From assembly GCF_003790525.1 (NCBI RefSeq), contig NZ_CP033635.1: a DNA stretch of 64,000 nt. One strand, written 5' to 3'. How positions within the stretch are numbered: the first letter of the stretch is position 1; every line of letters starts with the position of its first letter. Under the pieces are notes generated by a model, which was given only the letters and a program-made list of their open reading frames with translations, was not told the DNA's origin and searched no databases. A program made the translations under genes and the position numbers. This document shows positions 1,324-54,997 of this stretch, one piece after another. Source of the stretch: Escherichia coli (GTDB taxonomy: Bacteria > Pseudomonadota > Gammaproteobacteria > Enterobacterales > Enterobacteriaceae).

Positions 1324-2460
1324 ATGAGCCACTTAGACAACGGTTTCCGTTCACTGACACTACAACGTTTTCCGGCGACGGATGACGTTAACCCGCTACA
1401 GGCGTGGGAAGCGGCGGATGAATATTTGCTGCAACAGTTGGACGACACAGAAATCCGCGGCCCGGTGTTGATCCTGAATGATGCCTTTGGTGCGTTAAGT
1501 TGTGCGCTGGCGGAACATAAGCCGTACAGCATTGGCGACTCATACATCAGTGAACTGGCCACGCGCGAGAATTTACGCCTCAACGGGATTGATGAATCGA
1601 GCGTGAAGTTTCTCGACAGCACCGCCGACTACCCGCAACAGCCGGGCGTGGTACTGATCAAAGTACCGAAAACACTGGCGTTGCTGGAACAACAACTGCG
1701 TGCGCTGCGCAAAGTGGTCACGCCGGATACACGTATTATTGCCGGTGCTAAAGCCCGTGACATTCACACCTCCACGCTGGAACTGTTCGAAAAAGTGCTC
1801 GGTCCGACCACCACCACACTGGCATGGAAGAAAGCGCGCCTGATTAACTGCACTTTCAACGAGCCGCCGCTGGTTGATGCACCGCAGACCGTTAGCTGGA
1901 AGCTGGAAGGTACTGACTGGACTATCCACAACCATGCGAATGTCTTCTCCCGCACCGGGCTGGATATTGGCGCGCGCTTCTTTATGCAGCATCTGCCAGA
2001 GAATCTCGAAGGTGAGATTGTCGATCTCGGTTGTGGTAATGGCGTTATTGGTCTGACGCTGCTTGATAAAAACCCGCAGGCGAAAGTGGTGTTTGTCGAT
2101 GAATCGCCGATGGCGGTTGCTTCCAGCCGTTTGAACGTTGAAACCAACATGCCAGAGGCGTTGGATCGCTGCGAGTTTATGATTAACAACGCGCTCTCCG
2201 GCGTGGAGCCTTTCCGCTTTAATGCTGTGCTCTGCAACCCGCCGTTTCATCAGCAACATGCGCTGACCGATAACGTCGCCTGGGAGATGTTCCACCACGC
2301 CCGCCGCTGTCTGAAAATCAACGGCGAGCTGTATATCGTTGCCAACCGTCACCTGGATTACTTCCACAAACTGAAGAAAATTTTCGGCAACTGCACCACC
2401 ATCGCCACGAATAATAAATTTGTGGTGCTGAAAGCAGTGAAGCTGGGGCGTCGTCGGTAA
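1324..2460 (+). CDS. rlmG: 23S rRNA m2G1835 methyltransferase RlmG
   Basis: 378-aa ORF; NPPFH methyltransferase motif and DLGCGNG SAM-binding motif; position between ygjP and fadH. Confidence 0.9.
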
Positions 2461-2577
2461 GATTGGCAGCTACCTGCCAGATAAGGCGTAAACGCCTTAT
2501 CTGGCATACGTTCAGCACATTACCCCCAGGTCGGATAAGACGCGGCAAGCGTCGCATCCGGCACTTCAATGCACAAT
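2461..2577. repeat. REP-like palindromic units in the rlmG-fadH intergenic region
   Basis: gccagataaggcgtaaacgccttatctggc and gtcggataagacgcggcaagcgtcgcatccggcac imperfect palindromes of the REP type. Confidence 0.5.
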
Positions 2578-4623
<2,046 letters not shown>

Positions 4624-19101: not shown

Positions 19102-19387
19102 ATCAGCCTCCTTTTGCTTAATTAGATATATCTAATTTATATCTGATATGAGCACTCTTGCAAGAATAAAAATGATTTTTAAATGTGGCTCATCTCACAC
19201 GTAGGCCGGATAAGGCGTTCACGCCGCATCCGACATTGAGCAATGATGCTTGATAAGAGGTTGCGCGTCTTATCAGACTACAGATATATCAGTTCTACAA
19301 ATCGCTTGCATTTATCATGATTAACAATCATTATCATTTACGAAAATTATTTAGATATATCTGATTACTATCACGAAGGCGATAACA
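19102..19387. promoter_or_regulatory. yqjI-yqjH divergent control region with a Fur-box-like site and palindromic operator candidates
   Basis: Perfect 14-bp palindrome ttagatatatctaa at 19122-19135; near-copy ttagatatatctga at 19351-19364; Fur-box-like atgattaacaatcattatc at 19317-19335; REP-like gtaggccggataaggcgttcacgccgcatccgac in between. Confidence 0.5.
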
Positions 19388-20448: not shown

Positions 20449-21765
20449 ATGGCCGTCAATCTTACTGAAACAGCCATCCGAGCATTGAAAGCAAAAAAGA
20501 CATCGTTCTATGTCTGGAGCAACAGCTCTCAACGTGGCACTGGACGACTTGGTGTCAAAGTTCAGCCTTCTGGCAGCAAGATTTTCTATTTCCGCTATTA
20601 CGTGGAAAAAGGGAAAAAAGAAAGATTCATTCAATTGGGTATATGGCCTGAGATGAAACTGGCCACAGCGAATGAACTGACAAAAAAGTATGGTGCCTGG
20701 CTCATTGAAGGAAAGGATCCCCAGGCAGAACTGGAACGACAACAGTTTGCAGAACAGCAGCGGATACAACTCCATCAATCACAGGGCTCATTTGAAGCAT
20801 TGATTCATGGTTATGTTAACAAAATGAAAATTGATAATAAGAGGACATGGCAGGATGTTCTGAAACGCCTTGAAAATGAATGCTATACAGTGATCCCCCG
20901 TGAAACTAAAGCTAAAGATGTGACTTCCGGACAGATTAAACATATCCTGGCCGGGATCATTCAGCGCGGTGCTGTGGTTCACTCTAACCGGATCCGTTCT
21001 TACCTGATGGCTGCATTTAACTATGGACTGAAAGCAGATAACGATCCGATGAACACAAGTGTAGGGATTACTTTTGGGCTGGAGGCAAATCCGGTGTCAG
21101 TGATACCGAAACAGTCATCTGCTGAAAAAGTCGGTGATACCTGGCTGACACTTGAAGAGTTGCGTTTTCTAATGGAACATTTTGCTGAAGCAACCAACGT
21201 TGGATTATTGATGCAACATTTGATCCGATTCTGTATCTATACCGGAGGGCAACGTCCTTTCGAAATGATCGCCAGTCAGTGGTGTGATGTTGATTTTCAA
21301 CAAAAAACGCTGCTGGTGACTGCTGATGTCTCTAAAAATAAACGAGAGCATTTGATACCGTTGACTGAATCAGCATTACAGGAATTATCCTGTGTGCAGG
21401 AGTTAACAAAAGAAAAATCCAGCCCTTACATTTTTCCACTTTCGACTAATGGTAAGCGTCCGGTTCGTACGGACAGTCTGGCTCGCGCTATCATGTATTT
21501 CCGGGCTTTTAATCCTGACTTTAAAATTTTTACAGCACGTGACTTACGTCGGACCTGTAAAACGTTAATGGGAGAAGCTGGGATCAGTAAGGAAATCCGC
21601 GATCGTATTCAAAATCATGCGTTGAACGATGTCAGTTCAAAACATTATGATCGATACGATTATTTGCCAGAAAAACGCAGAGCACTTGAGATCTGGGAGG
21701 ACCGGGTTAATAACTATCAACAGCAAACAGGCAATAATGTTGTCAATCTGTTTGGCAGAAGGTGA
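20449..21765 (+). CDS. P4-type tyrosine integrase
   Basis: 438-aa ORF; C-terminal catalytic region with R...HxxR...Y arrangement (ARDLRRTCKTLM, HALNDVSSKHYDRYDY); directly adjacent to the tRNA fragment. Confidence 0.9.
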   Translation: MAVNLTETAIRALKAKKTSFYVWSNSSQRGTGRLGVKVQPSGSKIFYFRYYVEKGKKERFIQLGIWPEMKLATANELTKKYGAWLIEGKDPQAELERQQFAEQQRIQLHQSQGSFEALIHGYVNKMKIDNKRTWQDVLKRLENECYTVIPRETKAKDVTSGQIKHILAGIIQRGAVVHSNRIRSYLMAAFNYGLKADNDPMNTSVGITFGLEANPVSVIPKQSSAEKVGDTWLTLEELRFLMEHFAEATNVGLLMQHLIRFCIYTGGQRPFEMIASQWCDVDFQQKTLLVTADVSKNKREHLIPLTESALQELSCVQELTKEKSSPYIFPLSTNGKRPVRTDSLARAIMYFRAFNPDFKIFTARDLRRTCKTLMGEAGISKEIRDRIQNHALNDVSSKHYDRYDYLPEKRRALEIWEDRVNNYQQQTGNNVVNLFGRR

Positions 21766-41511: not shown

Positions 41512-44269
<2,758 letters not shown>

Positions 44270-44497
44270 TCTTAAATGACTCTGAGGTGTCTGTTAAACC
44301 TGTGGCGATTCAGTCTATTAAACCTGTGGCGATTCACTTTATGGTGTCATAAACTTAAATCTAGCGCCGGGTAGAACAAGTTAATCGAACGATGTAGCGG
44401 CCATTTAGGCGTTACAGAAAGAACAGAATTTTAAATTTATAGTGAAGCCGTTGCAGCAACTTTGTGGGGTGCAACCAACACTGAACAGGAAAAGAAA

Positions 44498-46921
44498 ATG
44501 GATCATAGTGTACATAACAAGCTCATCTCATTTATTTGGAACATTGCCGACGACTGTTTACGTGATGTGTACGTTCGCGGTAAGTACCGCGATGTGATTT
44601 TACCTATGGTGGTATTACGACGTTTAGATACGTTACTTGAACCCACCAAAGAAGCCGTGCTTGAAGAGGTCAAGTTCCAAAAAGAAGAGATGCAAGCCAC
44701 GGAGCTTGATGATGAACCATTGAAGGCGGCTAGTGGTTATGTTTTTTACAATACATCTAAATGGACCCTGAAATCCCTGTTCAACACCGCAACGAATAAC
44801 CAACAGATATTACTCGCCAACTTTGAAGAGTACCTGCTTGGCTTTAGCGATAATGTTAAAGAAATCATTGAATGCTTTAACCTCAAGTCGCAAATTCGTC
44901 ACATGGCCTCAAAGCAAGTCCTTCTTGATGTCGTCGAAAAGTTTGTTTCCCCTTACATCAACTTAACTCATGAAACGATCGAAGACCCAGATGGCAACAA
45001 GATGCCAGCCCTTACTAACCTGGGTATGGGGTACGTGTTCGAAGAGTTGATCCGTAAGTTCAACGAGGAGAATAACGAAGAAGCCGGTGAGCACTTTACA
45101 CCTAGGGAAGTGATTGAGCTGATGACACACTTGGTTTTTGACCCAGTGAAAGAGCAGCTACCATTGACCATGACCGTTTACGACCCTGCGTGTGGTAGCG
45201 GTGGTATGCTCACTGAATCTCAAAACTTCATTGAAGAGAAATACCCGAACGACAGCCGAGATATTTACCTTTACGGCAAAGAGATCAATGACGAGACCTA
45301 CGCGATTTGTAAATCGGACATGATGATCAAAGGTAACAACCCTGAGAACATCAAGGTAGGCTCAACCTTGTCTACCGACGAGTTTGCGGCTTCTCGCTTT
45401 GACTTTATGTTGTCTAACCCGCCATACGGTAAGAGTTGGGCGTCTGAACAGAAGCATATTAAAGACGGTAGTGACGTGATTGACCCACGTTTTAAGGTTA
45501 GCCTGAAAGACTATTGGGGAAATCTCGAAGTGGTGGATGCCACGCCACGTTCAAGTGATGGCCAGCTGCTCTTTTTAATGGAAATGGTCAACAAGATGAA
45601 AGATCCGAGCGTAAGCCCATTAGGCAGCCGGATTGCTTCTGTTCATAACGGCTCATCGCTCTTTACCGGTGATGCGGGCGGTGGCGAAAGTAACATTCGT
45701 CGCTTCATCATTGAAAACGACATGCTAGATGCCATCGTTCAGTTACCAAATAACCTGTTCTACAACACCGGCATTACCACTTACATTTGGGTGTTGAACA
45801 ACAATAAACCTGAGGCACGTAAAGGTAAGGTGCAACTGATTGATGCCAGCTTGCTATACCGTAAGTTGCGTAAGAACTTAGGTAACAAAAACTGCGAATT
45901 TGCGCCTGAGCACATCACGGAAATCACCGATACTTACCTCGCGTGTGTGGACGTTGAAAGAGCACTTGATGCAAACAATGATCCTATCGGTATCGCCAGT
46001 AAGGTCTTTAGTAATGACGACTTTGGCTACTACAAAGTCACTATCGAGCGCCCAGATCGCCGCAAAGCCAAGTTTACTCAAGATGCCATAGCCCCACTGC
46101 GTTTTGATAAGCAACTTAGTGAAGTGATGGAGTACGTGTACGCAGAGCACGGCGAACGTGTTTACGAAAAAACTGGCTACGGGTCAGATCAGAAAAAGAG
46201 CTTCTTAAAATCCATCGAGAAAGACATTCTTTCTTGGTGTGAAGATAACGACATCAGTCTCAATGCTAAGGCTAAGGCCAAACTGCTTGATGTGAAACAC
46301 TGGCTGGCGCTAAAAGCATTGCTTGAAACTGCACAAACGCTGATGGCTGACATCGGTAGCATTGAATTTGATGACTTCAATAGCTTTAAAACCCAAGTTG
46401 ATAAATCGCTAAAAGCCCATGCTATTAAGCTTTCAGCACCTGAGAAAAATGCCATTCTTCACGCGGTGAGCTGGTATGACGAAACCGCCAAGAAAGTGGT
46501 TAAAAAGGTAGTTAAATTAACGGGTGATAAATTAAACGACCTGCTGGAGCGCTATGAGTGTGAAGTCGCTGACTTGCCAGATTTTGGTTATTACCCCGTT
46601 CCTTCAGCAGAAGGCGGTAAAAAAGGCGAGTATATCACTTACGAGACCAATTCAGACCTGCGAGATACAGAATCTGTTCCATTAAAGCAAAGCATTTACC
46701 AGTACTTCCTAGATGAAGTGAAGCCTCATGTCGATGAAGCATGGATAAACCTAGATACGGTAAAAATTGGCTATGAAATCAGCTTCAATAAGTATTTCTA
46801 CCGTCATAAACCGCTGCGTAGTTTAGAAGAGGTCGCAACCGACATCATCAACCTAGAACAAAAAGCCGAAGGTTTGATTGCGCAGATTCTTGGTGCGGAA
46901 GTAAAAAAGGTTCAGGGGTAA
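44498..46921 (+). CDS. hsdM: Type I restriction-modification system methyltransferase subunit HsdM (long form, ~807 aa)
   Basis: Track ORF from 44462 (TTG); ATG at 44498 with AGGAAAAG RBS; N6-adenine MTase motifs DPACGSGGML and NPPYG; ~300-aa C-terminal extension. Confidence 0.85.
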   Translation: MDHSVHNKLISFIWNIADDCLRDVYVRGKYRDVILPMVVLRRLDTLLEPTKEAVLEEVKFQKEEMQATELDDEPLKAASGYVFYNTSKWTLKSLFNTATNNQQILLANFEEYLLGFSDNVKEIIECFNLKSQIRHMASKQVLLDVVEKFVSPYINLTHETIEDPDGNKMPALTNLGMGYVFEELIRKFNEENNEEAGEHFTPREVIELMTHLVFDPVKEQLPLTMTVYDPACGSGGMLTESQNFIEEKYPNDSRDIYLYGKEINDETYAICKSDMMIKGNNPENIKVGSTLSTDEFAASRFDFMLSNPPYGKSWASEQKHIKDGSDVIDPRFKVSLKDYWGNLEVVDATPRSSDGQLLFLMEMVNKMKDPSVSPLGSRIASVHNGSSLFTGDAGGGESNIRRFIIENDMLDAIVQLPNNLFYNTGITTYIWVLNNNKPEARKGKVQLIDASLLYRKLRKNLGNKNCEFAPEHITEITDTYLACVDVERALDANNDPIGIASKVFSNDDFGYYKVTIERPDRRKAKFTQDAIAPLRFDKQLSEVMEYVYAEHGERVYEKTGYGSDQKKSFLKSIEKDILSWCEDNDISLNAKAKAKLLDVKHWLALKALLETAQTLMADIGSIEFDDFNSFKTQVDKSLKAHAIKLSAPEKNAILHAVSWYDETAKKVVKKVVKLTGDKLNDLLERYECEVADLPDFGYYPVPSAEGGKKGEYITYETNSDLRDTESVPLKQSIYQYFLDEVKPHVDEAWINLDTVKIGYEISFNKYFYRHKPLRSLEEVATDIINLEQKAEGLIAQILGAEVKKVQG

Positions 46922-46927
46922 GTCGTT

Positions 46928-48238
46928 ATGATGAAGATTTCTGAAATGCCGAAATATGACGATTATGTAGATTCTGGGGTTGAATGGTTGGGACGAGTAC
47001 CTGCTTCTTGGGAATTAACACGATTAGGCACTCGCTTTAATGAGCGTAGATCTAAAGTTTCAGACATTGACTACCCCGCACTCTCCGTAACAAAAAAAGG
47101 CGTTCTACCTCAATTAGATAATGCGGCCAAAACAAAAGATGGCGATAACAGAAAGCTAGTAAAAGAGGGTGACTTTGTTATAAATAGCCGCTCTGATCGG
47201 AAAGGTTCTAGTGGAGTATCTGACAGAGATGGATCAGTATCGCTTATAAATATAGTGCTTAAACCAAAAGGGATTCATCCAAAGTTTTCTGAGCATCTTT
47301 TGAAAAGTCATGCATTTATTGAGGAATACTATCGTGTTGGACGTGGAATTGTCGCAGATTTGTGGACTACTCGATACGATGAAATGCGGACGATTACTAT
47401 ATCTGTTCCTTCACTAGAAGAGCAAACCCGTATCGCCAACTTCCTAGACAAGAAAACCGCTCTAATCGACGAAGCGATTTCGATCAAAGAAAAGCAAATT
47501 AATCTGTTAAAAGAACATAAGCAGATCATCATCCAACAGGCGGTGACCCAAGGGCTTGATCCCAATGTGCCAATGAAAGACTCCGGTGTGGATTGGATTG
47601 GAGATATTCCAGAGCATTGGGAAGTTGTGCCTCTAAAAAGGTTGGCGGTCTTGAGCCCTTCTGTGAAAGTTTCAAATAGAAAGTCCAAAGAATTAGTTAC
47701 TTTCTTAGCGATGGAAAAGGTTTCAACAGATGGATTTATTGATCAAGATACATTAATGCCTATATGTGATGTGAGCCAAGGTTTTACGGTTTTTAACCGG
47801 GGGGATGTGATTGTTGCAAAAATTACACCTTGCTTTGAAAATGGGAAATCTGCTTGGCTTAACAATCTTCAAACTGAGTTTGGATACGGCTCAACCGAGT
47901 TTCACGTTTTAAGATGTGGTCAGAGAATTATAGGAAGTTTTCTCTACTTAATCGTTAGTTCGCCCCTTTTTCTTAATGCCGGTGAGGCTATGATGACTGG
48001 TTCAGCTGGTCAGAAGCGCGTGCCTAGTTCATTTATCCAAAACTTTCCTACCGCAATTCCCGGAGTTGCAGAGCAAGAAAAAATAGTATCAAAGGTAAAA
48101 GAGCTGTTTTCACAGATTGATGTTGTTGTGGCTTCTACGGTAAATCAAATCGAAAAGCTCAAAGAATACAAAACCACCCTGATCAACAGCGCCGTGACAG
48201 GAAAAATAAAAATCACCCCAGAAATGGTTGAGCAATAG
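46928..48238 (+). CDS. hsdS: Type I R-M specificity subunit HsdS (two target-recognition domains)
   Basis: 436-aa ORF 6 bp after hsdM; duplicated architecture with conserved central and C-terminal repeat regions. Confidence 0.8.
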   Translation: MMKISEMPKYDDYVDSGVEWLGRVPASWELTRLGTRFNERRSKVSDIDYPALSVTKKGVLPQLDNAAKTKDGDNRKLVKEGDFVINSRSDRKGSSGVSDRDGSVSLINIVLKPKGIHPKFSEHLLKSHAFIEEYYRVGRGIVADLWTTRYDEMRTITISVPSLEEQTRIANFLDKKTALIDEAISIKEKQINLLKEHKQIIIQQAVTQGLDPNVPMKDSGVDWIGDIPEHWEVVPLKRLAVLSPSVKVSNRKSKELVTFLAMEKVSTDGFIDQDTLMPICDVSQGFTVFNRGDVIVAKITPCFENGKSAWLNNLQTEFGYGSTEFHVLRCGQRIIGSFLYLIVSSPLFLNAGEAMMTGSAGQKRVPSSFIQNFPTAIPGVAEQEKIVSKVKELFSQIDVVVASTVNQIEKLKEYKTTLINSAVTGKIKITPEMVEQ

Positions 48239-48247
48239 GAAGCGAAT

Positions 48248-49411
48248 ATGTTCACGGTAAATTATCAGACCAACAGGATTAGTCCGGTTAAGACGAAGAG
48301 ATTCAGTGAGTTGGGCTTTACTGAGCGCAAAAATCTTCAGGAATGGTTGGCACACGAGCCTTCCGCACTGGGTGAAGAGCTGCTGATTATTCAAAAAGAG
48401 TTCGATGGCTTTGATGACACCCGTGAACGCTTAGATTTACTGGCACTGGATAAAGATGGCAACTTGGTCATTATTGAAAACAAGCTGGACGATAGTGGCC
48501 GCGATGTGGTGTGGCAGGCGCTTAAATATGCCTCCTACTGCGCAAGTTTAACCAAAGCGCAAATCGTTGAAATTTACCAGCAGTACTTAGACCGCTATGA
48601 GCCTGTAACAGGAGAGGTTGACTTGTTTAATACCCCTGCAAGTGCCTCTGCTAGAATATGTGAGTTTTTGGATGCGCCCGATCTCGATGAGTTAAAGCTC
48701 AACCTGGGTAACAGCCAGCGCATTATGTTAGTTGCGGCAAACTTTCGCAAAGAAGTGACCAGCACCGCGCTGTGGTTATTGGGTCAAGGCATTAGCATTG
48801 CCTGCTTCAAAATCACGCCTTATTCACTGGGTGAACAGCTACTGATTAATATTGACCAGATCATTCCAACGCCAGAAGCGAAAGAGTTGATGATCGGCAT
48901 TAATGCCAAGGAAGCGGAAGAAAAAACCACCGAAGTGGTACTAAAAAACCGCCATACCGTGCGTCGCGAGTACTGGGAGCGTGCCTTAGAGGCGTTTCAG
49001 AAAAGCTCTTGCCAACTCTATAACAACATTAGCCCAAGCAAAGATCATTGGTTATCAGCAGGCTCAGGGCTAAGTGGATGTCCGTATAACCTGATATTTC
49101 TGCAAAAAGAGCTTCGAGTAGAGCTTTGGATCAGCCGTGGGGTTACCGAAGAGAATAAATACCTTTTTGATTTGTTGAGTCAGTCCAAACAAGACATTGA
49201 GCATACTTTTGGTGCAGAACTTGAGTGGATGAGGCTGGATGAGAAGAAATCTTGCCGTATCCAGTTTTCGACCAAAGCTGACGGGTTTAACAAAGAGACT
49301 TGGCCCCAAGCGGTTGCGTGGCACTTAGAGCAGATGACAAAGTTAGAAAAAGCCTTAAAAGGACCGCTGCAAAAAGCGGCTGAGGCAATGAAACAGAAGA
49401 ATTTTGATTAA
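48248..49411 (+). CDS. PD-(D/E)xK nuclease-fold protein with DUF4268-like C-terminal region, embedded between hsdS and hsdR
   Basis: 387-aa ORF; RERLDLLALDKDGNLVIIENKLDD ... QALKYASY gives a D / ExK / QxxxY (RecB-type) motif series; 9 bp after hsdS and 14 bp before hsdR. Confidence 0.5.
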   Translation: MFTVNYQTNRISPVKTKRFSELGFTERKNLQEWLAHEPSALGEELLIIQKEFDGFDDTRERLDLLALDKDGNLVIIENKLDDSGRDVVWQALKYASYCASLTKAQIVEIYQQYLDRYEPVTGEVDLFNTPASASARICEFLDAPDLDELKLNLGNSQRIMLVAANFRKEVTSTALWLLGQGISIACFKITPYSLGEQLLINIDQIIPTPEAKELMIGINAKEAEEKTTEVVLKNRHTVRREYWERALEAFQKSSCQLYNNISPSKDHWLSAGSGLSGCPYNLIFLQKELRVELWISRGVTEENKYLFDLLSQSKQDIEHTFGAELEWMRLDEKKSCRIQFSTKADGFNKETWPQAVAWHLEQMTKLEKALKGPLQKAAEAMKQKNFD

Positions 49412-49425
49412 GGGAATTTACAATT

Positions 49426-52400
49426 ATGGTCAGTCAAACCAATGAACAAGCATTAGAGTCGGCCATTGAGAAATGTCTGGCTGGGATCAGTACTGAAGAG
49501 CTTAAAGAGGGACTGAGTCAGCAGTCACTGGGTGCTGGATACTTCATTGGTGCTGCTAGTGACTTTAATATGCAATATGCCATTGATGAACGTTTTTTCT
49601 GGCAATTTCTGCAAAAGACACAAGAAGTAGAGTTGGCCAAACTGCAAAAGAACAACCCCTCAGATTGGCAACGTAAGTTACTCGAACGATTTGACCGACT
49701 GATTAAGAAGCATGGCATTCTTCATTTACTTAAGAAAGGGCTAAGCGTAGACGATGCTCATTTCAATTTGCTCTATCCAGCCCCTTTGGCAAGTAGTAGT
49801 GAGAAGGTAAAGCAAAACTTTGCAGATAACGTGTTTAGTTGTACTCGCCAAGTGCGCTATTCCATGGTAAATCCCCTACAAGAAATCGACATGGTATTGT
49901 TTATCAACGGAATACCCTTGATAACGCTGGAGTTGAAGAACGCATGGACCGGGCAAACAGCACGTTATCACGGCCAAAAGCAGTATCGAGATGATCGGGA
50001 TGCAACTCAGCCATTGCTGACCTTTGGCCGCTGCCTAGTGCATATGGCGGTCGATACCGACGAAGTGTATATGACCACCAAGTTATCAGGTAGCAGTACA
50101 TTCTTCTTGCCGTTCAATAAAGGTCACAATCTTGGACAAGGCAACCCGCCGAATCCATCTGGCCATAAAACGGCATACCTATGGCAAGAAGTATTCACTA
50201 AAGACAGCTTGGCGAATATTATTCAGCATTTTGTGCGTCTGGATGGGTCAAGCAAAGATCCATTACCAAAGCGAACCCTGTTCTTTCCTCGATACCATCA
50301 ATTGGATGTGGTGAGAAAATTAGTAGACCATGCCGCCCAGCACGGTGTCGGTCAGACTTACTTAATTCAACACTCAGCCGGTTCAGGTAAGTCTAACTCG
50401 ATTACCTGGGCAGCTTATCAGCTAATTGAAACCTATCCTGCTTCGTCTGATGTGGCAGGCGGAAAAAGCTTGGAGCAGCCGTTGTTTGACTCTGTGATTG
50501 TGGTCACCGATAGACGCCTATTGGACAAGCAGCTGCGGGATAACATTAAAGAGTTTTCTGAAGTAAAGAACATTATTGCCCCAGCGAATAAGTCTTCTGA
50601 GCTTAAGCAGGCGCTGGAGAATGGCAAAAAGATTATTATAACGACGATTCAGAAATTCCCGTTCATTATTGATGGTATCGCCGATCTTAGTGACAAGCGC
50701 TTTGCAGTGATCATCGATGAAGCACACAGCTCACAGTCTGGTTCGGCGCATGACAATATGAACCGAGCGATGGGCAAGTCTGAAGTCGAAGAGGCAGAAG
50801 ATGCTCAGGATAAAATCCTTCAGGCGATGAGATCGCGTAAGATGCGCGGGAATGCGTCGTACCTGGCATTTACAGCGACACCAAAAAACAGCACTTTGGA
50901 GAAATTTGGTCAACGCCAAGAAGATGGCTCTTACAAGCCGTTTCACTTGTATTCGATGAAACAAGCCATTGAAGAAGGCTTCATCTTGGATGTGCTGGCA
51001 AATTATACGACGTACAAAAGTTATTATGAGATTGAGAAATCAATTGCTGATAACCCTGAGTTTGATACCAAAAAGGCGCAGAAAAAACTCAGAGCTTATG
51101 TAGAACGAAGCCAGCAAACAATTGATATCAAGGCAGAGATTATGCTGGAGCATTTTGTTCCGCATGTCGTGAATACGAAAAAGCTCAAAGGTAAAGGTAA
51201 AGGAATGGTGGTCACTCAAAATATTGAGGCGGCCATTCGATACTACAAAGCGATAAGGCGAATACTTGAGGAGCAAGGAAACCCGTTTAAAGTTGCCATT
51301 GCTTTCTCAGGAACCAAAGAAGTTGATGGTATTGAATATACCGAAGCAGATATTAATGGTTTTGCCGAGTCAGATACCAAAGATATGTTTGATACCGATG
51401 AGTATCGACTTTTAGTGGTTGCTAACAAGTATCTGACTGGGTTTGACCAGCCTAAGCTTTGCGCCATGTATGTAGATAAGAAGCTCGCCAGTGTCTTGTG
51501 TGTTCAGGCGCTATCTAGGCTCAATCGCAGTGCACCTAAGCTAGGGAAGAAAACAGAAGACTTGTTTATCCTGGATTTTTTCAACTCGGTTGAAGATATT
51601 CAATCAGCATTCGATCCTTTCTATACAGCAACGTCATTGTCCCAAGCTACAGATATAAACGTACTGCACGAGTTGAAAGATGAAATGGACGATGTCGGTG
51701 TGTACGAGTGGTATGAAGTTGAAGACTTTGTGACGCGTTATTTCAAGAATGAAGACGCCCAAACACTCAGTCCAATCATTGATATTGCCGCAGCGCGGTT
51801 TGACCATGAACTAGATCTTGAAGCTGAAGCTAAAGTGGACTTTAAGATTAAAGCCAAACAGTTCGTTAAAATCTATGGGCAGATGGCTTCTATCATGCCT
51901 TATGAAATGGTCAGCTGGGAAAAACTGTTTTGGTTCCTGAAGTTTTTAATACCGAAATTGAAAGTGGAAGATCCCGATGCTGATGCTATTGATGAGCTTC
52001 TCGATTCTGTCGATCTGAGTTCATACGGTTTGCAACGTGTGAAGCTTAACCACAGCATTAAACTTAGTGACCAAGAAGCGGAGCTTGATCCTCAAAATCC
52101 GAACCCACGTGGGGTGCATGGCGGTGAAAAAGAAACTGACCCGCTGGATGAAATCATTCGCACATTTAATGAGCGATGGTTCCAGGGCTGGAGTGCCACA
52201 CCTGAAGAGCAAAAGGTTAAGTTCGTGAACATCGCTGAAAGTATCCGCAATCACCCTGACTTCGAATCGAAATACAAAAACAACCCAGATCCCCATAATC
52301 GAGATTTGGCCTTCGAAAAAATGCTCAAGGAAATCATGCTGCAACGCCGTAAAGATGAACTTGAGCTCTACAAGTTGTTCGCAGGAGATTCAGCATTTAA

Positions 52401-52443
52401 AGCCTCGTGGACGCAAAGTATGCAACGAATGGTAGGTAGGTAG
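49426..52443 (+). CDS. hsdR: Type I restriction enzyme endonuclease/helicase subunit HsdR
   Basis: 1005-aa ORF; SF2 helicase motifs (HSAGSGKS Walker A, IIDEAHSS DEAH box) downstream of an N-terminal nuclease region. Confidence 0.85.
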   Translation: MVSQTNEQALESAIEKCLAGISTEELKEGLSQQSLGAGYFIGAASDFNMQYAIDERFFWQFLQKTQEVELAKLQKNNPSDWQRKLLERFDRLIKKHGILHLLKKGLSVDDAHFNLLYPAPLASSSEKVKQNFADNVFSCTRQVRYSMVNPLQEIDMVLFINGIPLITLELKNAWTGQTARYHGQKQYRDDRDATQPLLTFGRCLVHMAVDTDEVYMTTKLSGSSTFFLPFNKGHNLGQGNPPNPSGHKTAYLWQEVFTKDSLANIIQHFVRLDGSSKDPLPKRTLFFPRYHQLDVVRKLVDHAAQHGVGQTYLIQHSAGSGKSNSITWAAYQLIETYPASSDVAGGKSLEQPLFDSVIVVTDRRLLDKQLRDNIKEFSEVKNIIAPANKSSELKQALENGKKIIITTIQKFPFIIDGIADLSDKRFAVIIDEAHSSQSGSAHDNMNRAMGKSEVEEAEDAQDKILQAMRSRKMRGNASYLAFTATPKNSTLEKFGQRQEDGSYKPFHLYSMKQAIEEGFILDVLANYTTYKSYYEIEKSIADNPEFDTKKAQKKLRAYVERSQQTIDIKAEIMLEHFVPHVVNTKKLKGKGKGMVVTQNIEAAIRYYKAIRRILEEQGNPFKVAIAFSGTKEVDGIEYTEADINGFAESDTKDMFDTDEYRLLVVANKYLTGFDQPKLCAMYVDKKLASVLCVQALSRLNRSAPKLGKKTEDLFILDFFNSVEDIQSAFDPFYTATSLSQATDINVLHELKDEMDDVGVYEWYEVEDFVTRYFKNEDAQTLSPIIDIAAARFDHELDLEAEAKVDFKIKAKQFVKIYGQMASIMPYEMVSWEKLFWFLKFLIPKLKVEDPDADAIDELLDSVDLSSYGLQRVKLNHSIKLSDQEAELDPQNPNPRGVHGGEKETDPLDEIIRTFNERWFQGWSATPEEQKVKFVNIAESIRNHPDFESKYKNNPDPHNRDLAFEKMLKEIMLQRRKDELELYKLFAGDSAFKASWTQSMQRMVGR

Positions 52444-52468
52444 GTAGAAAGGAGTGATGGTTTGCTGA

Positions 52469-52591
52469 AGGCAGTCTCAGAGTTATTAGGTGGGTCACCA
52501 GGCCTGAAAGGACGTCAAATTGCCAAGGAGCTGGGGCTGGATAAGTCACAAGTGAACTCGTTTCTTCACAAACACCAGGATACGTTTTGAA
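52469..52591 (+). pseudogene. 5' fragment of a small HTH gene truncated by the IS911 left end
   Basis: TTG-initiated frame LLKAVSELLGGSPGLKGRQIAKELGLDKSQVNSFLHKHQDTF ends in a TGA supplied by the first bases of the IS911 IR. Confidence 0.3.
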
Positions 52592-52922
52592 GTGGCACAC
52601 TGAATTTGGCCACCTGAACAGAGGTGATATGCTCACCTCAGAACAACACAGGTGCTCCAATGAAAAAAAGAAATTTCAGCGCAGAGTTTAAACGCGAATC
52701 CGCTCAACTGGTTGTTGACCAGAACTACACGGTGGCAGATGTCGCCAAAGCTATGGATGTTGGCCTTTCCACAATGACAAGATGGGTCAAACAACTGCGT
52801 GATGAGCGTCAGGGCAAAACACCAAAAGCCTCTCCGATAACACCAGAACAAATCGAAATACGTGAGCTGAGGAAAAAGCTACAACGCATTGAAATGGAGA
52901 ATGAAATATTAAAAAAGGCTAC
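52589..52922 (+). mobile_element. IS911 5' part: left IR and truncated orfA, interrupted by IS30
   Basis: tgaagtggcacactgaatttggccacc terminal repeat; orf[36 protein letters not shown]... ends abruptly after ...ILKKAT where IS30 terminal sequence begins. Confidence 0.7.
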
Positions 52923-53685
52923 TGTAGATTCAATCTGTCAATGCAACACCCCTTTCAATTATCTCTTTCGGTGTTTTGAACTTCAGTGTCTTTCTCGGTC
53001 TGTTGTTTAGCTGAGCAGCAACCAGATCTAGTTCATGTTGAGTATATTGGGCAAGACATGTCTTTTTAGGAAAGTACTGCCGAATTAGCCCATTTGTGTT
53101 CTCATTTGTTCCCCGCTGCCAAGGACTCTGAGGATCGCAGAAGTAAACTTTAACGCCGGTGCTGACAGTAAATTCTAGATGTCTGGCCAGTTCCATTCCT
53201 CTGTCCCATGTCAGTGATTTTCTGAGTTCTGACGGTAAACTCAGGAATTTGTCGGTAAGAGCCTGATTTACTGAGACAGAATCTTTGCCCCTGAGTCTAA
53301 GGATGATCGTATAACGTGATTTTCGGTCTACAAGTGTGGCTATATGAGAGTTTTTTGTACCTGAGACTAAATCGCCCTCCCAATGCCCCAGAGAGCGTCT
53401 GTTATCGATATTTCGGGAACGTTCGTGAATTGGTGTTCCGTTCACTATGTTAATCGTACCTCTTTCGCCTTTGCGGGTATGACGCCTGCCATGGCGAAGG
53501 CTATGCGACCGTCGCAGATGCTGTATATTCAGGTGGTGTAGCGCTTCACGGCTACGAAAGTACAGCGTTTTATAAATTGTCTCAGGTGATATTCGCAGCG
53601 TTTTTTGACGTGGTTTTGTTCGCCTTAACCATCCTGATATTTGCTCTGGAGACCATTTCATCTCCAGCTTTTCCAGAACAAGGTA
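52923..53685 (-). mobile_element. IS30 3' portion (right IR plus C-terminal ~255 codons of the transposase), 5'-truncated
   Basis: Terminal tgtagattcaatctgtcaatgcaacacc at 52923; transposase frame (track ORF 52930..53847) is IS30-like from ...LVLEKLEMKWSPEQISGW... to ...[10 protein letters not shown]; upstream ORF codons derive from unrelated sequence. Confidence 0.7.
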
Positions 53686-54271
53686 AGCGTAAACCGACCG
53701 CCGTATGTAGCCATTAGACAAGAATTGGTAACTTAGACGCCCATCTGACACAGACGGACATCTAAGTATGGAATTACAGGACTGGCGAAAAGAACCTCTA
53801 AAAAGTATTCGAATGAATTCAAACTTCGTATGATTGACTGGCATCACAACCCGGTGCTTGTGTGGCCCAGATTGCTCGAGAAAATGGCGTCAATGATAAT
53901 GTTATTTTCAAATGGCTCAGACTTTGGCAAAACGAAGGGCGTATATCGCGGCGTCTTCCGGTAACAACCTCTTCTGACACTGGCGTTGAATTATTACCTG
54001 TGGAGATAACGCCGGATGAGCCGCAAGAACCGGTGGCTGCTCTTACTCCGTCTTTATCCACCCAGACTACTGTCAGTGCCAGCTCCTGCAAGGTGGAGTT
54101 CCGTCACGGTAACATGACGCTGGAAAATCCTTCACCAGATCTGCTCACAGTGTTGCTCCGTGAACTGAGCGGGAGGGGACAATGATCTCACTCCCGTCAG
54201 GTACCCGCATCTGGCTGGGTGCCGGCATTACCGATATGCGTAAATCCTTCAACGGATACGACATATGCTGA
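53686..54271 (+). mobile_element. IS66-family 5' portion: left end, tnpA (orf1) and the first ~30 codons of tnpB
   Basis: Begins gtaagcgtaaaccgaccgcc; ORF 53862..54185 (MAQIARENGVNDNVIFKWLRLWQNEGRISRR, HTH-like); 54182 starts MISLPSGTRIWLGAGITDMRKSFNG (IS66 TnpB N-terminus) then stops. Confidence 0.5.
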
Positions 54272-54997
54272 AGGAGGAGCAGTAATGGATTAAGTGATAA
54301 CAAATGCCCAGAAATAGAGGTTTAAATCCTGCTTAGTTAGTACATAAATACTATTTTGATGAAAATTATTATATGTCACCTCGGATTTTAATCAGGCGCC
54401 CAGATTAAATCAAGTATTGAGCGCCTGATTATGTTTATTCATTAATATCTGTCATTGATTGTCTTATTATCAGTTACCCCCGTCTTAATCAGAGTTTTCA
54501 TTTATTTTTAATGCATAATCAGATGCCGCCTCATCATTATCCTCAGTATTATCATAGCCGAAAACTTCTCCCGGGCACGGGCGTTCACGATAATAGTCAT
54601 CGTTATAGTTTTCATCGTCAGATAATGATATGTCGTATTCTGAATATGATTCACCACAATTATACATAAAATCATCTCCTTTGGGATTGTTACAATAATT
54701 AGTGAGTTTATTCGAAAAAATAATGAGCGCCAGACCAATCCACCCGACTTTTGATTATAATCATGAAGATACCTGTCTCAGTACAAATAGAATCAAACTC
54801 AATACAGCATGATTCACCTTTATATTCTCTCAGGGAAACCAAATACCACTATTCAACTATTAAGAATAAAATTCTGGAGGTGCGATTATCTGAAGATACC
54901 TGCATCCTAAATAATTTCAGACAGATATTATCTCCGTGAATCCCCCGCCACCTTTCCGGTGCGCGGGGTTTTGTCTTTTTTCACCGGGAATACATGT

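What the first reader, a model, noticed from the sequence alone, without database searches (positions are those of the whole stretch)
2461..2577. No higB-higA (ygjN-ygjM) genes between rlmG and fadH; the interval holds only REP-type palindromes
In E. coli K-12, as I recall, the HigB-HigA toxin-antitoxin pair lies between fadH and rlmG. Here the two genes are separated by 117 bp containing REP-like palindromes, so this strain lacks that TA module or never acquired it.
Basis: established knowledge. Interest (0 to 1): 0.3.

Follow-up and report, generated by a model that had tools for sequence, protein, structure and literature searches.

The report
Empty higBA site between rlmG and fadH
This E. 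coli strain carries a common, already documented variant in which the small HigB-HigA toxin-antitoxin gene pair found in K-12 between rlmG and fadH is missing, most likely deleted between two short repeated palindromes, so the finding is correct but ordinary.

Summary
rlmG (1324-2460, +) and fadH (2578-4596, -) converge on a 117-bp interval (2461-2577). It holds two inverted REP palindromes (one BIME) and no higB/higA. K-12 has a 1055-bp interval there with higB-higA. The window equals the K-12-type arrangement minus 938 bp.

The breakpoint lies in a direct repeat, GCATCCGGCA (2554-2563). The repeat is formed by the 3' arm of REP2 and the 3' arm of a collapsed REP downstream of higA. Deleting in silico between these repeats in an O157:H7 full allele gives a 117-bp product with 4 mismatches to the window.

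Among 5,426 complete E. coli genomes:
- about 52% carry full higBA;
- about 28% carry a 324-bp deletion allele that keeps an orphan higA;
- about 19.5% (1,049-1,064) are empty like the window and have no higBA DNA anywhere.

E. whittamii carries the cassette at the same site with species-level divergence. The window's flanks are closest to occupied alleles. Secondary loss is therefore favoured (about 0.8) over "never acquired". Variation at this locus is already published and REP-bounded rearrangement is, from memory, a known kind of event. Interest is low.

The parts
1324..2460 (+). rlmG (23S rRNA m2G1835 methyltransferase), 378 aa; stop codon at 2458-2460
   Evidence: ORF list. tblastn self-match and 99.2% aa identity to K-12 RlmG. 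PGAP annotation of the 99.9%-identical genome GN03551.
2461..2577 (.). 117-bp convergent intergenic interval: one BIME (REP1, linker, REP2) and the empty higBA site
   Evidence: Sequence. Alignment to K-12 shows a single 938-column gap. Contiguous junction found in 1,064 of 5,426 complete genomes.
2472..2509 (.). REP1, a Y-type REP variant (type assigned from memory) with a perfect 15+15-nt palindrome (arms 2475-2489 and 2492-2506); the stem starts 14 nt after the rlmG stop codon
   Evidence: Inverted repeat I1, 100% complementary. 14-bp hairpin in both RNA folds. Homologous to the canonical REP at the same position in K-12. Sub-threshold naRNA4 hit.
2529..2563 (.). REP2, a Z2-like REP (type assigned from memory) in inverse orientation to REP1; the stem ends 14 nt before the fadH stop codon (on the + strand)
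   Evidence: Hairpin in the RNA folds. Conserved in all E. coli alleles examined. Matched by the REP pattern search.
2554..2563 (.). GCATCCGGCA: the single remaining copy of the direct repeat at which the 938-bp higB-higA segment is missing (the deletion junction)
   Evidence: In occupied alleles this sequence occurs twice, 938-939 bp apart. The perfect repeat is 9-15 bp long depending on the allele. In-silico deletion gives 117 bp.
2564..2577 (.). 14-bp fadH-proximal flank CTTCAATGCACAAT. The same flank type is seen in all sampled empty alleles and in the O157:H7 full allele.
   Evidence: An O157-type right junction is present in 318 genomes at >=99% identity.
2578..4596 (-). fadH (NADPH-dependent 2,4-dienoyl-CoA reductase), 672 aa; stop codon at 2578-2580 on the + strand
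   Evidence: ORF list. tblastn gives 99.0% aa identity to K-12 FadH. PGAP annotation of GN03551.

Best explanation
The 117-bp interval is what remains after the higB-higA cassette was deleted. The cassette comprises about 180 bp of promoter/operator region, higB and higA.

In occupied alleles the order is: rlmG, BIME (REP1+REP2), higB, higA, a collapsed REP, fadH. The 3' arm of REP2 (GCGTCGCATCCGGCA) and the 3' arm of the collapsed REP (GCGTYGCATCCGGCR) are direct repeats. Recombination or replication slippage between them removes 938 bp and leaves a single intact BIME. That is the structure seen in the window.

The deletion leaves a REP hairpin 14 nt downstream of each stop codon, as in the occupied alleles. 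I infer, but did not test, that the 3' ends of the rlmG and fadH transcripts keep their stem-loops.

The allele is not private to this strain. It is inherited, shared by about one fifth of sequenced E. coli, and probably moved between backgrounds by homologous recombination.

Shown: the anatomy, the junction, the population frequencies, and the absence of higBA elsewhere in genomes that have no match. Inferred: the direction of the event (loss rather than gain) and the molecular route (repeat-mediated deletion, possibly followed by allelic replacement).
For: 1. The alignment to K-12 shows one 938-bp gap bounded by GCATCCGGC repeats. The left 103 bp and the fadH-side flank are retained.
2. Perfect direct repeats of 9-15 bp occur 938-939 bp apart in four full alleles. 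They occur 614 bp apart in two orphan-higA alleles. In-silico deletion in the O157:H7 allele gives 117 bp with 4 mismatches to the window.
3. The window's 103-bp BIME is identical to that of MS1050, which has full higBA. Its rlmG 3' half is 99.4% identical to MS1050. Its right flank CTTCAATGCAC occurs in the O157:H7 full allele. The window's flanks are closer to these occupied alleles than to the other sampled empty alleles.
4. Two other alleles at this locus are unambiguous deletions because they truncate ORFs. One is a 324-bp deletion that removes the promoter and 79 codons of higB. The other is an 895-bp deletion that leaves 105 nt of higA. The cassette is therefore decaying in E. coli.
5. 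E. whittamii has full higBA at the same site. Its higA is 94.0% identical to E. coli higA at the nucleotide level, close to rlmG at 93.8%. That is co-divergence, not recent transfer. Escherichia sp. MOD1-EC7003 also has higA there.
6. Population counts: full higBA in 2,825-2,845 genomes, partial in about 1,520-1,550, empty junction in 1,064, no higBA DNA at all in 1,049 of 5,426.
Against: - The junction alone cannot give direction. Integration of a circular REP-bearing cassette at REP2 would produce the same flanking repeats.
- At family level the empty state is ancestral. Of 75 Enterobacteriaceae species representatives with both genes, 70 have no higBA between rlmG and fadH, and in 15 the two stop codons abut with 0 bp between them.
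- A deeply divergent Escherichia lineage (SCPM-O-B-8794, fadH only 90% identical) also carries the empty allele with the same flank type. The polymorphism may therefore predate E. coli.
- All 7 sampled empty alleles share the GCAC flank. Only about 7% of occupied alleles have it. That fits one old empty haplotype as well as it fits recurrent deletion.
- E. fergusonii, E. marmotae and Salmonella were not recovered. No species tree was mapped.
Confidence: 0.78

Rival explanations
1. Never acquired. The rlmG-BIME-fadH arrangement is the original Escherichia state in this lineage. The higBA cassette entered other lineages by recombination at the REP, the reverse of the deletion reaction, or by allelic replacement through the flanking genes.
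For: - The empty state is ancestral for the family: 70 of 75 species representatives lack the cassette and 15 have a 0-bp interval.
- The empty allele is present in a deeply divergent Escherichia lineage (L004).
- higBA is less diverse within E. coli (higA mean 98.2% identity) than rlmG (96.8%) or fadH (95.7%). That could reflect a later spread of the cassette.
- All sampled empty alleles share one flank signature.
Against: - The cassette co-diverges with its flanks between E. coli and E. whittamii.
- It sits at the same site in Pseudocitrobacter and two other lineages, with identities that fall in the same order as RlmG and FadH.
- The window's flanks are nearest to occupied alleles, not to other empty alleles.
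- Two further alleles at the locus are definite deletions.
- In E. whittamii and MOD1-EC7003 a whole BIME lies between higA and fadH. An insertion would therefore have had to duplicate or bring its own BIME.
Confidence: 0.18
2. The module is not lost but has moved. higBA sits elsewhere in this strain's genome, outside the 64-kb window, or on a plasmid.
For: Only 64 kb of this genome can be read. Toxin-antitoxin modules are often mobile.
Against: - Sensitive blastn with the K-12 higBA coding sequence finds at most 2 places per genome.
- Only one of 4,382 places is on a plasmid.
- 1,049 genomes have no match at all, against 1,064 genomes with the empty junction.
- At most about 15 empty-site genomes could therefore carry a copy elsewhere.
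Confidence: 0.02
3. Assembly artefact: the REP repeats caused the assembler to collapse the higBA segment out of the sequence.
For: The breakpoint lies in a repeated sequence.
Against: - The same junction is present in 1,064 independently finished complete genomes, including the E. coli type strain ATCC 11775.
- The repeat is only 10-15 bp long, far too short to collapse an assembly.
Confidence: 0.01

Closest known systems
E. coli K-12 higB-higA (ygjN-ygjM, b3083-b3082) type II toxin-antitoxin locus
   Same: Same chromosomal site, between convergent rlmG and fadH, with the same rlmG-proximal BIME.
   Different: The window lacks the entire 938-bp segment: higB, higA, their promoter/operator region and the 5' arm of the collapsed REP. 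No HigB or HigA homologue is found in the 64 kb.
Orphan-higA allele of CFT073 / NRG857c (described in PMC7232551, Front Microbiol 2020)
   Same: Another decayed state of the same locus. In T309.Ta3 and KC-Dl-1 it sits on the same left BIME haplotype as the window.
   Different: That allele has a 324-bp deletion that removes the promoter and 79 codons of higB but keeps an intact 138-aa higA (about 28% of genomes). The window keeps nothing of the cassette.
REP / BIME elements of E. coli (Y and Z2 REPs; the BIME-2 architecture is named from memory, not typed here)
   Same: Imperfect palindromes of about 35 nt with the GCCGGAT...ATCCGGC core. Two copies lie in inverse orientation with a short linker, in an extragenic position between convergent genes, and belong to a multicopy family.
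   Different: REP1 in the window is a variant made perfectly palindromic by five changes. Binding of gyrase, IHF or Pol I, and any effect on mRNA, were not tested.
REP-bounded chromosomal rearrangements (duplications or deletions with REPs at the join point, as I recall from Salmonella and E. coli work around 1990; not re-read here)
   Same: The deletion end-points lie in directly repeated REP arms with 9-15 bp of perfect identity.
   Different: Here the event is inferred from natural alleles and was not observed experimentally. RecA dependence is unknown.

Membership tests
HigB-HigA type II toxin-antitoxin module (HigB_toxin PF09907 + HTH antitoxin) | A HigB/RelE-fold toxin gene is present | tested here: not met
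   tblastn with K-12 HigB (which matches PF09907 at E = 3.6e-22) gives no hit in the window at E<=1e-5.
HigB-HigA type II toxin-antitoxin module (HigB_toxin PF09907 + HTH antitoxin) | An adjacent HTH (HigA) antitoxin gene is present | tested here: not met
   tblastn with K-12 HigA gives no hit in the window. The interval is only 117 bp.
REP (repetitive extragenic palindromic) element | Imperfect palindrome of about 35-40 nt with the conserved GCCGGAT...ATCCGGC-type core, able to form a stable stem-loop | tested here: met
   REP1 has 15-nt arms that are 100% complementary. Both hairpins appear in the MFE folds, with z = -7.6 and -4.35. The sequences are homologous to the K-12 REPs at the same position.
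REP (repetitive extragenic palindromic) element | Extragenic and dispersed in many copies around the genome | tested here: met
   The elements lie between two stop codons. The K-12 interval that carries the canonical forms matches a median of 25 places per genome. A further canonical copy lies in the window at 19201-19234. Rfam naRNA4 gives sub-threshold hits of 26-31 bits against a gathering score of 59.5.
BIME (bacterial interspersed mosaic element) | Two REPs in inverse orientation separated by a short linker motif | tested here: met
   REP1 (2472-2509) and REP2 (2529-2563) are inversely oriented with a linker of about 20 nt. The subtype (BIME-1 or BIME-2) was not formally typed.
BIME (bacterial interspersed mosaic element) | Bound by DNA gyrase or IHF; effect on mRNA stability or termination | not testable with these tools
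   No biochemical or transcript data are available. The consensus scan finds no intrinsic terminator or promoter in 2300-2750.
Repeat-mediated deletion allele | One copy of a sequence that is directly repeated at both ends of the missing segment in the undeleted allele | tested here: met
   GCATCCGGC(A) occurs twice, 938-939 bp apart, in full alleles and once in the window. The simulated product is 117 bp.
Repeat-mediated deletion allele | Derived state: the undeleted allele is ancestral | tested here: inconclusive
   Favoured by E. whittamii and MOD1-EC7003 as outgroups, by co-divergence and by flank similarity to occupied alleles. The family-level ancestral state is empty, however, and no tree-based reconstruction was done.

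The most novel reading that the evidence does not exclude
The most novel reading not excluded is that the rlmG/fadH junction is an old, recurrently remodelled 'landing pad' in Enterobacteriaceae. In 15 of 75 species representatives the two stop codons abut with 0 bp between them. In the others the gap has been colonised by genus-specific palindromic elements. In at least four genus-level lineages it holds the same higBA cassette, which then decays through defined alleles.

Two sub-readings follow. The frequent retention of an intact but promoterless orphan higA (about 28% of E. coli) could reflect selection for the antitoxin alone, as a regulator or as an anti-addiction gene. The precise replacement of higB by a DUF1266 gene directly upstream of higA, seen in Escherichia sp. 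MOD1-EC7003 and in 2 of 5,426 'E. coli' genomes, could mark a new toxin partner for HigA. E. albertii carries the same DUF1266 start, but its contig ends before any higA.

None of this lies in the window itself, and none of it was tested.
Probability: 0.1. Interest if true: 0.4.

Novelty: already known. Interest (0 to 1): 0.1.

Why it matters
It matters little beyond bookkeeping. The finding tells an annotator that this strain belongs to the roughly one fifth of E. coli that lack the chromosomal HigBA module. That is relevant when K-12 toxin-antitoxin repertoires, persistence results or delta-10-TA strain results are extrapolated to other lineages.

The locus is a tidy natural series of full, orphan-antitoxin and empty alleles, with the deletion junctions resolved to the base. 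It could serve as a teaching example or as a marker for REP-bounded deletion and for toxin-antitoxin decay. It does not open a new question.

Tried and rejected
- **Flank mismatch that seemed to argue against deletion.** At first the 14-bp fadH-side flank of every empty allele (CTTCAAYGCAC) differed from the occupied alleles I had sampled (CTTCAAATAAC). Sampling more alleles showed that the O157:H7 full allele carries the GCAC flank, so this objection was dropped.
- **RNA families.** The Rfam search of 2200-2800 found nothing above threshold, only REP-related naRNA4 at 26-31 bits. An sRNA gene was rejected.
- **Promoters and terminators.** The consensus scan of 2300-2750 gave 0 promoters and 0 terminators.
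- **ORF across the REPs.** The 83-aa ORF at 2318..2569 (-) runs antisense to the 3' end of rlmG and through the REPs. I treated it as spurious and did not pursue it.
- **Outgroups.** It did not return E. fergusonii, E. marmotae or Salmonella. The E. albertii contig ends in an IS10-like sequence (identified from memory) 644 bp after rlmG. Outgroup polarity is therefore incomplete.
- **Literature.** I could not find in the library the paper I recall on REPs within 15 nt of stop codons and translation. That idea is marked as recalled, not cited. Two surveys are cited in other papers but were not readable here: Fiedoruk et al. 2015 and Ramisetty & Santhosh 2016.
- **Phylogroup of the window.** Not determined. 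The closest complete genomes are GN03551 and GN03139, at 99.9% over 24 kb.
- **Insertion signatures in another lineage.** Comparing the occupied L067 with the empty L068 showed no flanking repeats and was uninformative.

Full report
**Observation.** The window holds rlmG at 1324..2460 (+, 378 aa) and fadH at 2578..4596 (-, 672 aa). The two genes converge on a 117-bp interval, 2461..2577. PGAP annotation of a 99.9%-identical complete genome (GN03551) lists the same two CDS with nothing between them. In K-12 MG1655 the same two genes are separated by 1055 bp that contain higA (b3082) and higB (b3083). PMC5120126 tabulates the same layout: rlmG, 283 bp, higB-higA, 44 bp, fadH. tblastn with K-12 HigB and HigA finds nothing in the 64-kb window.

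**What the 117 bp are.** The interval contains two palindromes in inverse orientation.
- REP1 has arms at 2475-2489 and 2492-2506, 15 nt each and 100% complementary.
- REP2 lies at about 2529-2563.
- The interval folds much better than shuffled sequence on both strands (z = -7.6 and -4.35), with both hairpins in the MFE structures.
- No consensus promoter or intrinsic terminator is found.
- The only Rfam signal is sub-threshold naRNA4, which I recall to be a REP-derived family.
- The canonical forms of these REPs in K-12 match a median of 25 places per E. coli genome. A further canonical copy lies at 19201-19234 in the window.

This is a BIME, a pair of inverted REPs. Each REP stem begins 14 nt from the adjacent stop codon. 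From general knowledge of REPs I infer that the two hairpins act as 3'-end stem-loops for the convergent transcripts. That was not tested.

**Relation to the K-12 arrangement.** The pairwise alignment shows that the window equals K-12 minus one block of 938 bp. The 103 bp next to rlmG (REP1, linker, REP2) are retained, and so is the short flank next to fadH. In occupied alleles the missing block is bounded by direct repeats. On the left is the 3' arm of REP2 (GCGTCGCATCCGGCA). On the right is the 3' arm of a short REP just after higA (GCGTYGCATCCGGCR). That short REP is itself a collapsed BIME, because E. whittamii and Escherichia sp. MOD1-EC7003 have a whole BIME at this position. The perfect repeat is 9 bp in K-12, 10 bp in O157:H7, 14 bp in MS1050, AVS0467 and T309.Ta3, and 15 bp in KC-Dl-1. 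The window keeps one copy, at 2554-2563.

**An objection that was resolved.** Every empty allele I sampled has CTTCAAYGCAC next to fadH: the window, E69, SCPM-O-B-8794, UTME-8, SWYH.B349aT, EC21Z-097 and OkiPb01709. The first occupied alleles I looked at had CTTCAAATAAC instead. That appeared to rule out a simple deletion. Further sampling showed that the O157:H7 full allele has the GCAC flank and also the window-type left BIME. Deleting in silico between its two GCATCCGGCA copies removes 938 bp. The 117-bp product differs from the window at 4 positions. The O157-type right junction is present at >=99% identity in 318 genomes. In addition, the window's 103-bp BIME is identical to that of MS1050 (full higBA), and its rlmG 3' half is 99.4% identical to MS1050. 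The same stretch is only 95.7-97.2% identical to the other sampled empty alleles.

**Population picture (5,426 complete E. coli genomes).**

| Allele | Genomes |
|---|---|
| Full higBA | 2,825-2,845 (about 52%) |
| Partial cassette, almost all the 324-bp deletion | about 1,520-1,550 (about 28%) |
| Contiguous empty junction | 1,064 |
| No higBA-like DNA anywhere (blastn, word size 11) | 1,049 |

- The 324-bp deletion removes the higB promoter/operator and the first 79 codons of higB, and leaves an intact 138-aa higA.
- The higBA query never matches more than 2 places per genome, and only one place is on a plasmid. The module is therefore a single-locus element, and an empty site means the genome lacks it.
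- The empty-junction genomes include the E. coli type strain ATCC 11775.
- Rare further alleles exist. One is an 895-bp deletion that leaves 105 nt of higA (strain 2017.10.01CC). Another is a DUF1266 gene in place of higB, in 2 genomes.
- The 324-bp deletion has only 1 bp of microhomology. It nevertheless occurs with an identical junction on two different left-flank haplotypes. This shows that alleles at this locus are moved between backgrounds by recombination.

**Direction: loss or never gained?**

For loss:
- Two other alleles at the locus are unambiguous deletions.
- E. whittamii carries full higBA at the site. Its higA is 94.0% identical to E. coli higA, matching rlmG (93.8%) and fadH (92.0%). 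That is co-divergence rather than recent transfer.
- MOD1-EC7003 also has higA there.
- Homologous cassettes sit at the same site in Pseudocitrobacter faecalis and two other lineages. Their homology includes about 170 bp upstream of higB, and their identities fall in the same order as RlmG and FadH.
- The window's flanks are closest to occupied alleles.

Against loss:
- The junction is symmetrical with respect to deletion and integration.
- At family level the empty state is ancestral. Of 75 species representatives with both genes, only 5 have higA or higBA, and in 15 the two stop codons abut (taacta).
- A deeply divergent Escherichia lineage also carries the empty allele.
- The cassette is less diverse within E. 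coli than its flanks.

I put secondary loss at about 0.8 and 'never acquired' at just under 0.2. Relocation and assembly artefact are each 0.02 or less.

**Comparison with what is known.** PMC7232551 states that K-12 and HS encode complete HigBA in the fadH-rlmG intergenic region, while CFT073 and NRG857c encode an orphan higA. Surveys of type II toxin-antitoxin distribution across E. coli phylogroups exist: Fiedoruk et al. 2015 and Ramisetty & Santhosh 2016. They are cited but were not readable here. REPs as end-points of rearrangements are established knowledge that I recall rather than re-read. The fully empty allele is present and correctly annotated in over a thousand public genomes. Nothing here is new in kind.

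**Verdict.** The finding is accurate and its interpretation is supported. The refinement is that the absence is best read as an old, common, REP-bounded deletion allele rather than a site that was never occupied. It is an ordinary presence/absence polymorphism of a chromosomal toxin-antitoxin module. Interest is low and the novelty rating is 'already known'.

Noticed in passing
window 2475-2506 (also L087, L089, L002, L090): REP1 is a perfect 15+15-nt palindrome (GCCAGATAAGGCG / CGCCTTATCTGGC). The canonical form in K-12 is imperfect (GCCGGATGCGGCG / CGCCTTATCCGGC). A G>A change in one arm is matched by C>T in the other, and a GC>AA change removes the two canonical mismatches. This looks like compensatory change or hairpin-templated correction. 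The variant is shared with the O157:H7, MS1050, T309.Ta3 and KC-Dl-1 alleles.
   Followed up: partly
window 2461-2474 and 2564-2577: Both REP stems start exactly 14 nt from the stop codons of rlmG and fadH. The occupied alleles also keep a REP about 14-15 nt after the fadH stop. I recall a report that REPs within about 15 nt of a stop codon reduce expression through ribosome stalling. I could not find the paper in the library, and the idea was not tested.
   Followed up: no
L002:1997-2487, L090:1498-1988, L092:1498-1988: An orphan-higA allele is present in about 28% of complete E. coli genomes. A 324-bp deletion removes the higB promoter/operator and 79 codons of higB but leaves an intact 138-aa higA. 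The identical junction, with only 1 bp of microhomology, lies on two different left-flank haplotypes, which implies spread by recombination. The allele is already noted for CFT073 and NRG857c in PMC7232551.
   Followed up: partly
L091:2000-2159: Strain 2017.10.01CC has a fourth allele. An 895-bp deletion runs from 13 nt after the rlmG stop into higA. It removes the BIME and higB and leaves the last 105 nt of higA.
   Followed up: partly
L005:5333-6130; L003:1833-1850; H231, H232: In Escherichia sp. MOD1-EC7003 a low-GC DUF1266 gene (PF06889, E = 1.7e-24) replaces higB and its promoter. It ends 21 bp upstream of an intact higA. E. albertii NBRC 107761 has the same gene start, cut after 21 nt by an IS10-like end (identified from memory), and its contig ends before any higA. 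Only 2 of 5,426 'E. coli' genomes carry this allele. Whether DUF1266 and HigA are functionally paired is unknown.
   Followed up: partly
L003-L082 (rlmG-fadH interval in species representatives): In 15 of 75 Enterobacteriaceae species representatives the rlmG and fadH stop codons abut with 0 bp between them (taacta). In most others the gap (19-457 bp; 1,580 bp in L055) holds genus-specific palindromic repeats. Homologous higBA cassettes occupy the same site in E. whittamii (L006), Pseudocitrobacter faecalis (L053), 'Citrobacter sp. 18056' (L067) and strain RIT691 (L069). HigB is 64-69% identical to K-12 HigB in the three non-Escherichia loci.
   Followed up: partly
L001:5685-5728 versus L006:6146-6249 and L005:6566-6682: The short REP between higA and fadH in K-12 (GCCGGATGCGTTGCATCCGGC) looks like an internally collapsed BIME. 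It joins the start of a Y-type REP to the end of a Z2-like REP. E. whittamii and MOD1-EC7003 have the full two-REP BIME at that position.
   Followed up: partly
window 1324-4596 versus L001, L002, L083-L092: rlmG and fadH are unusually diverse among E. coli strains. Pairwise nucleotide identity runs from 93.2 to 98.5%, with means of 96.8% for rlmG and 95.7% for fadH. That approaches the distance to E. whittamii (93.8% and 92.0%). higA between them is less diverse (mean 98.2%). This may reflect old haplotypes or imports from other clades.
   Followed up: no
window 20449-~62600: A large island starts with a tyrosine integrase (20449-21765) next to nfeF. No tRNA gene is found in the window. By comparison with GN03551 the island carries carbohydrate-utilisation genes, IS fragments, a Cah/Ag43-like autotransporter and a CbtA/YeeU-type module. 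A group II intron reverse transcriptase lies at 42333-43691.
   Followed up: partly
window 44266-54384: This segment has no counterpart in the island region of the closest complete genome that was compared (L094, GN03551 718000-764000). It encodes a type I restriction-modification system in the order hsdM (44462-46921), hsdS (46928-48238), a DUF4268 protein (48248-49411) and hsdR (49426-52443).
   Followed up: partly
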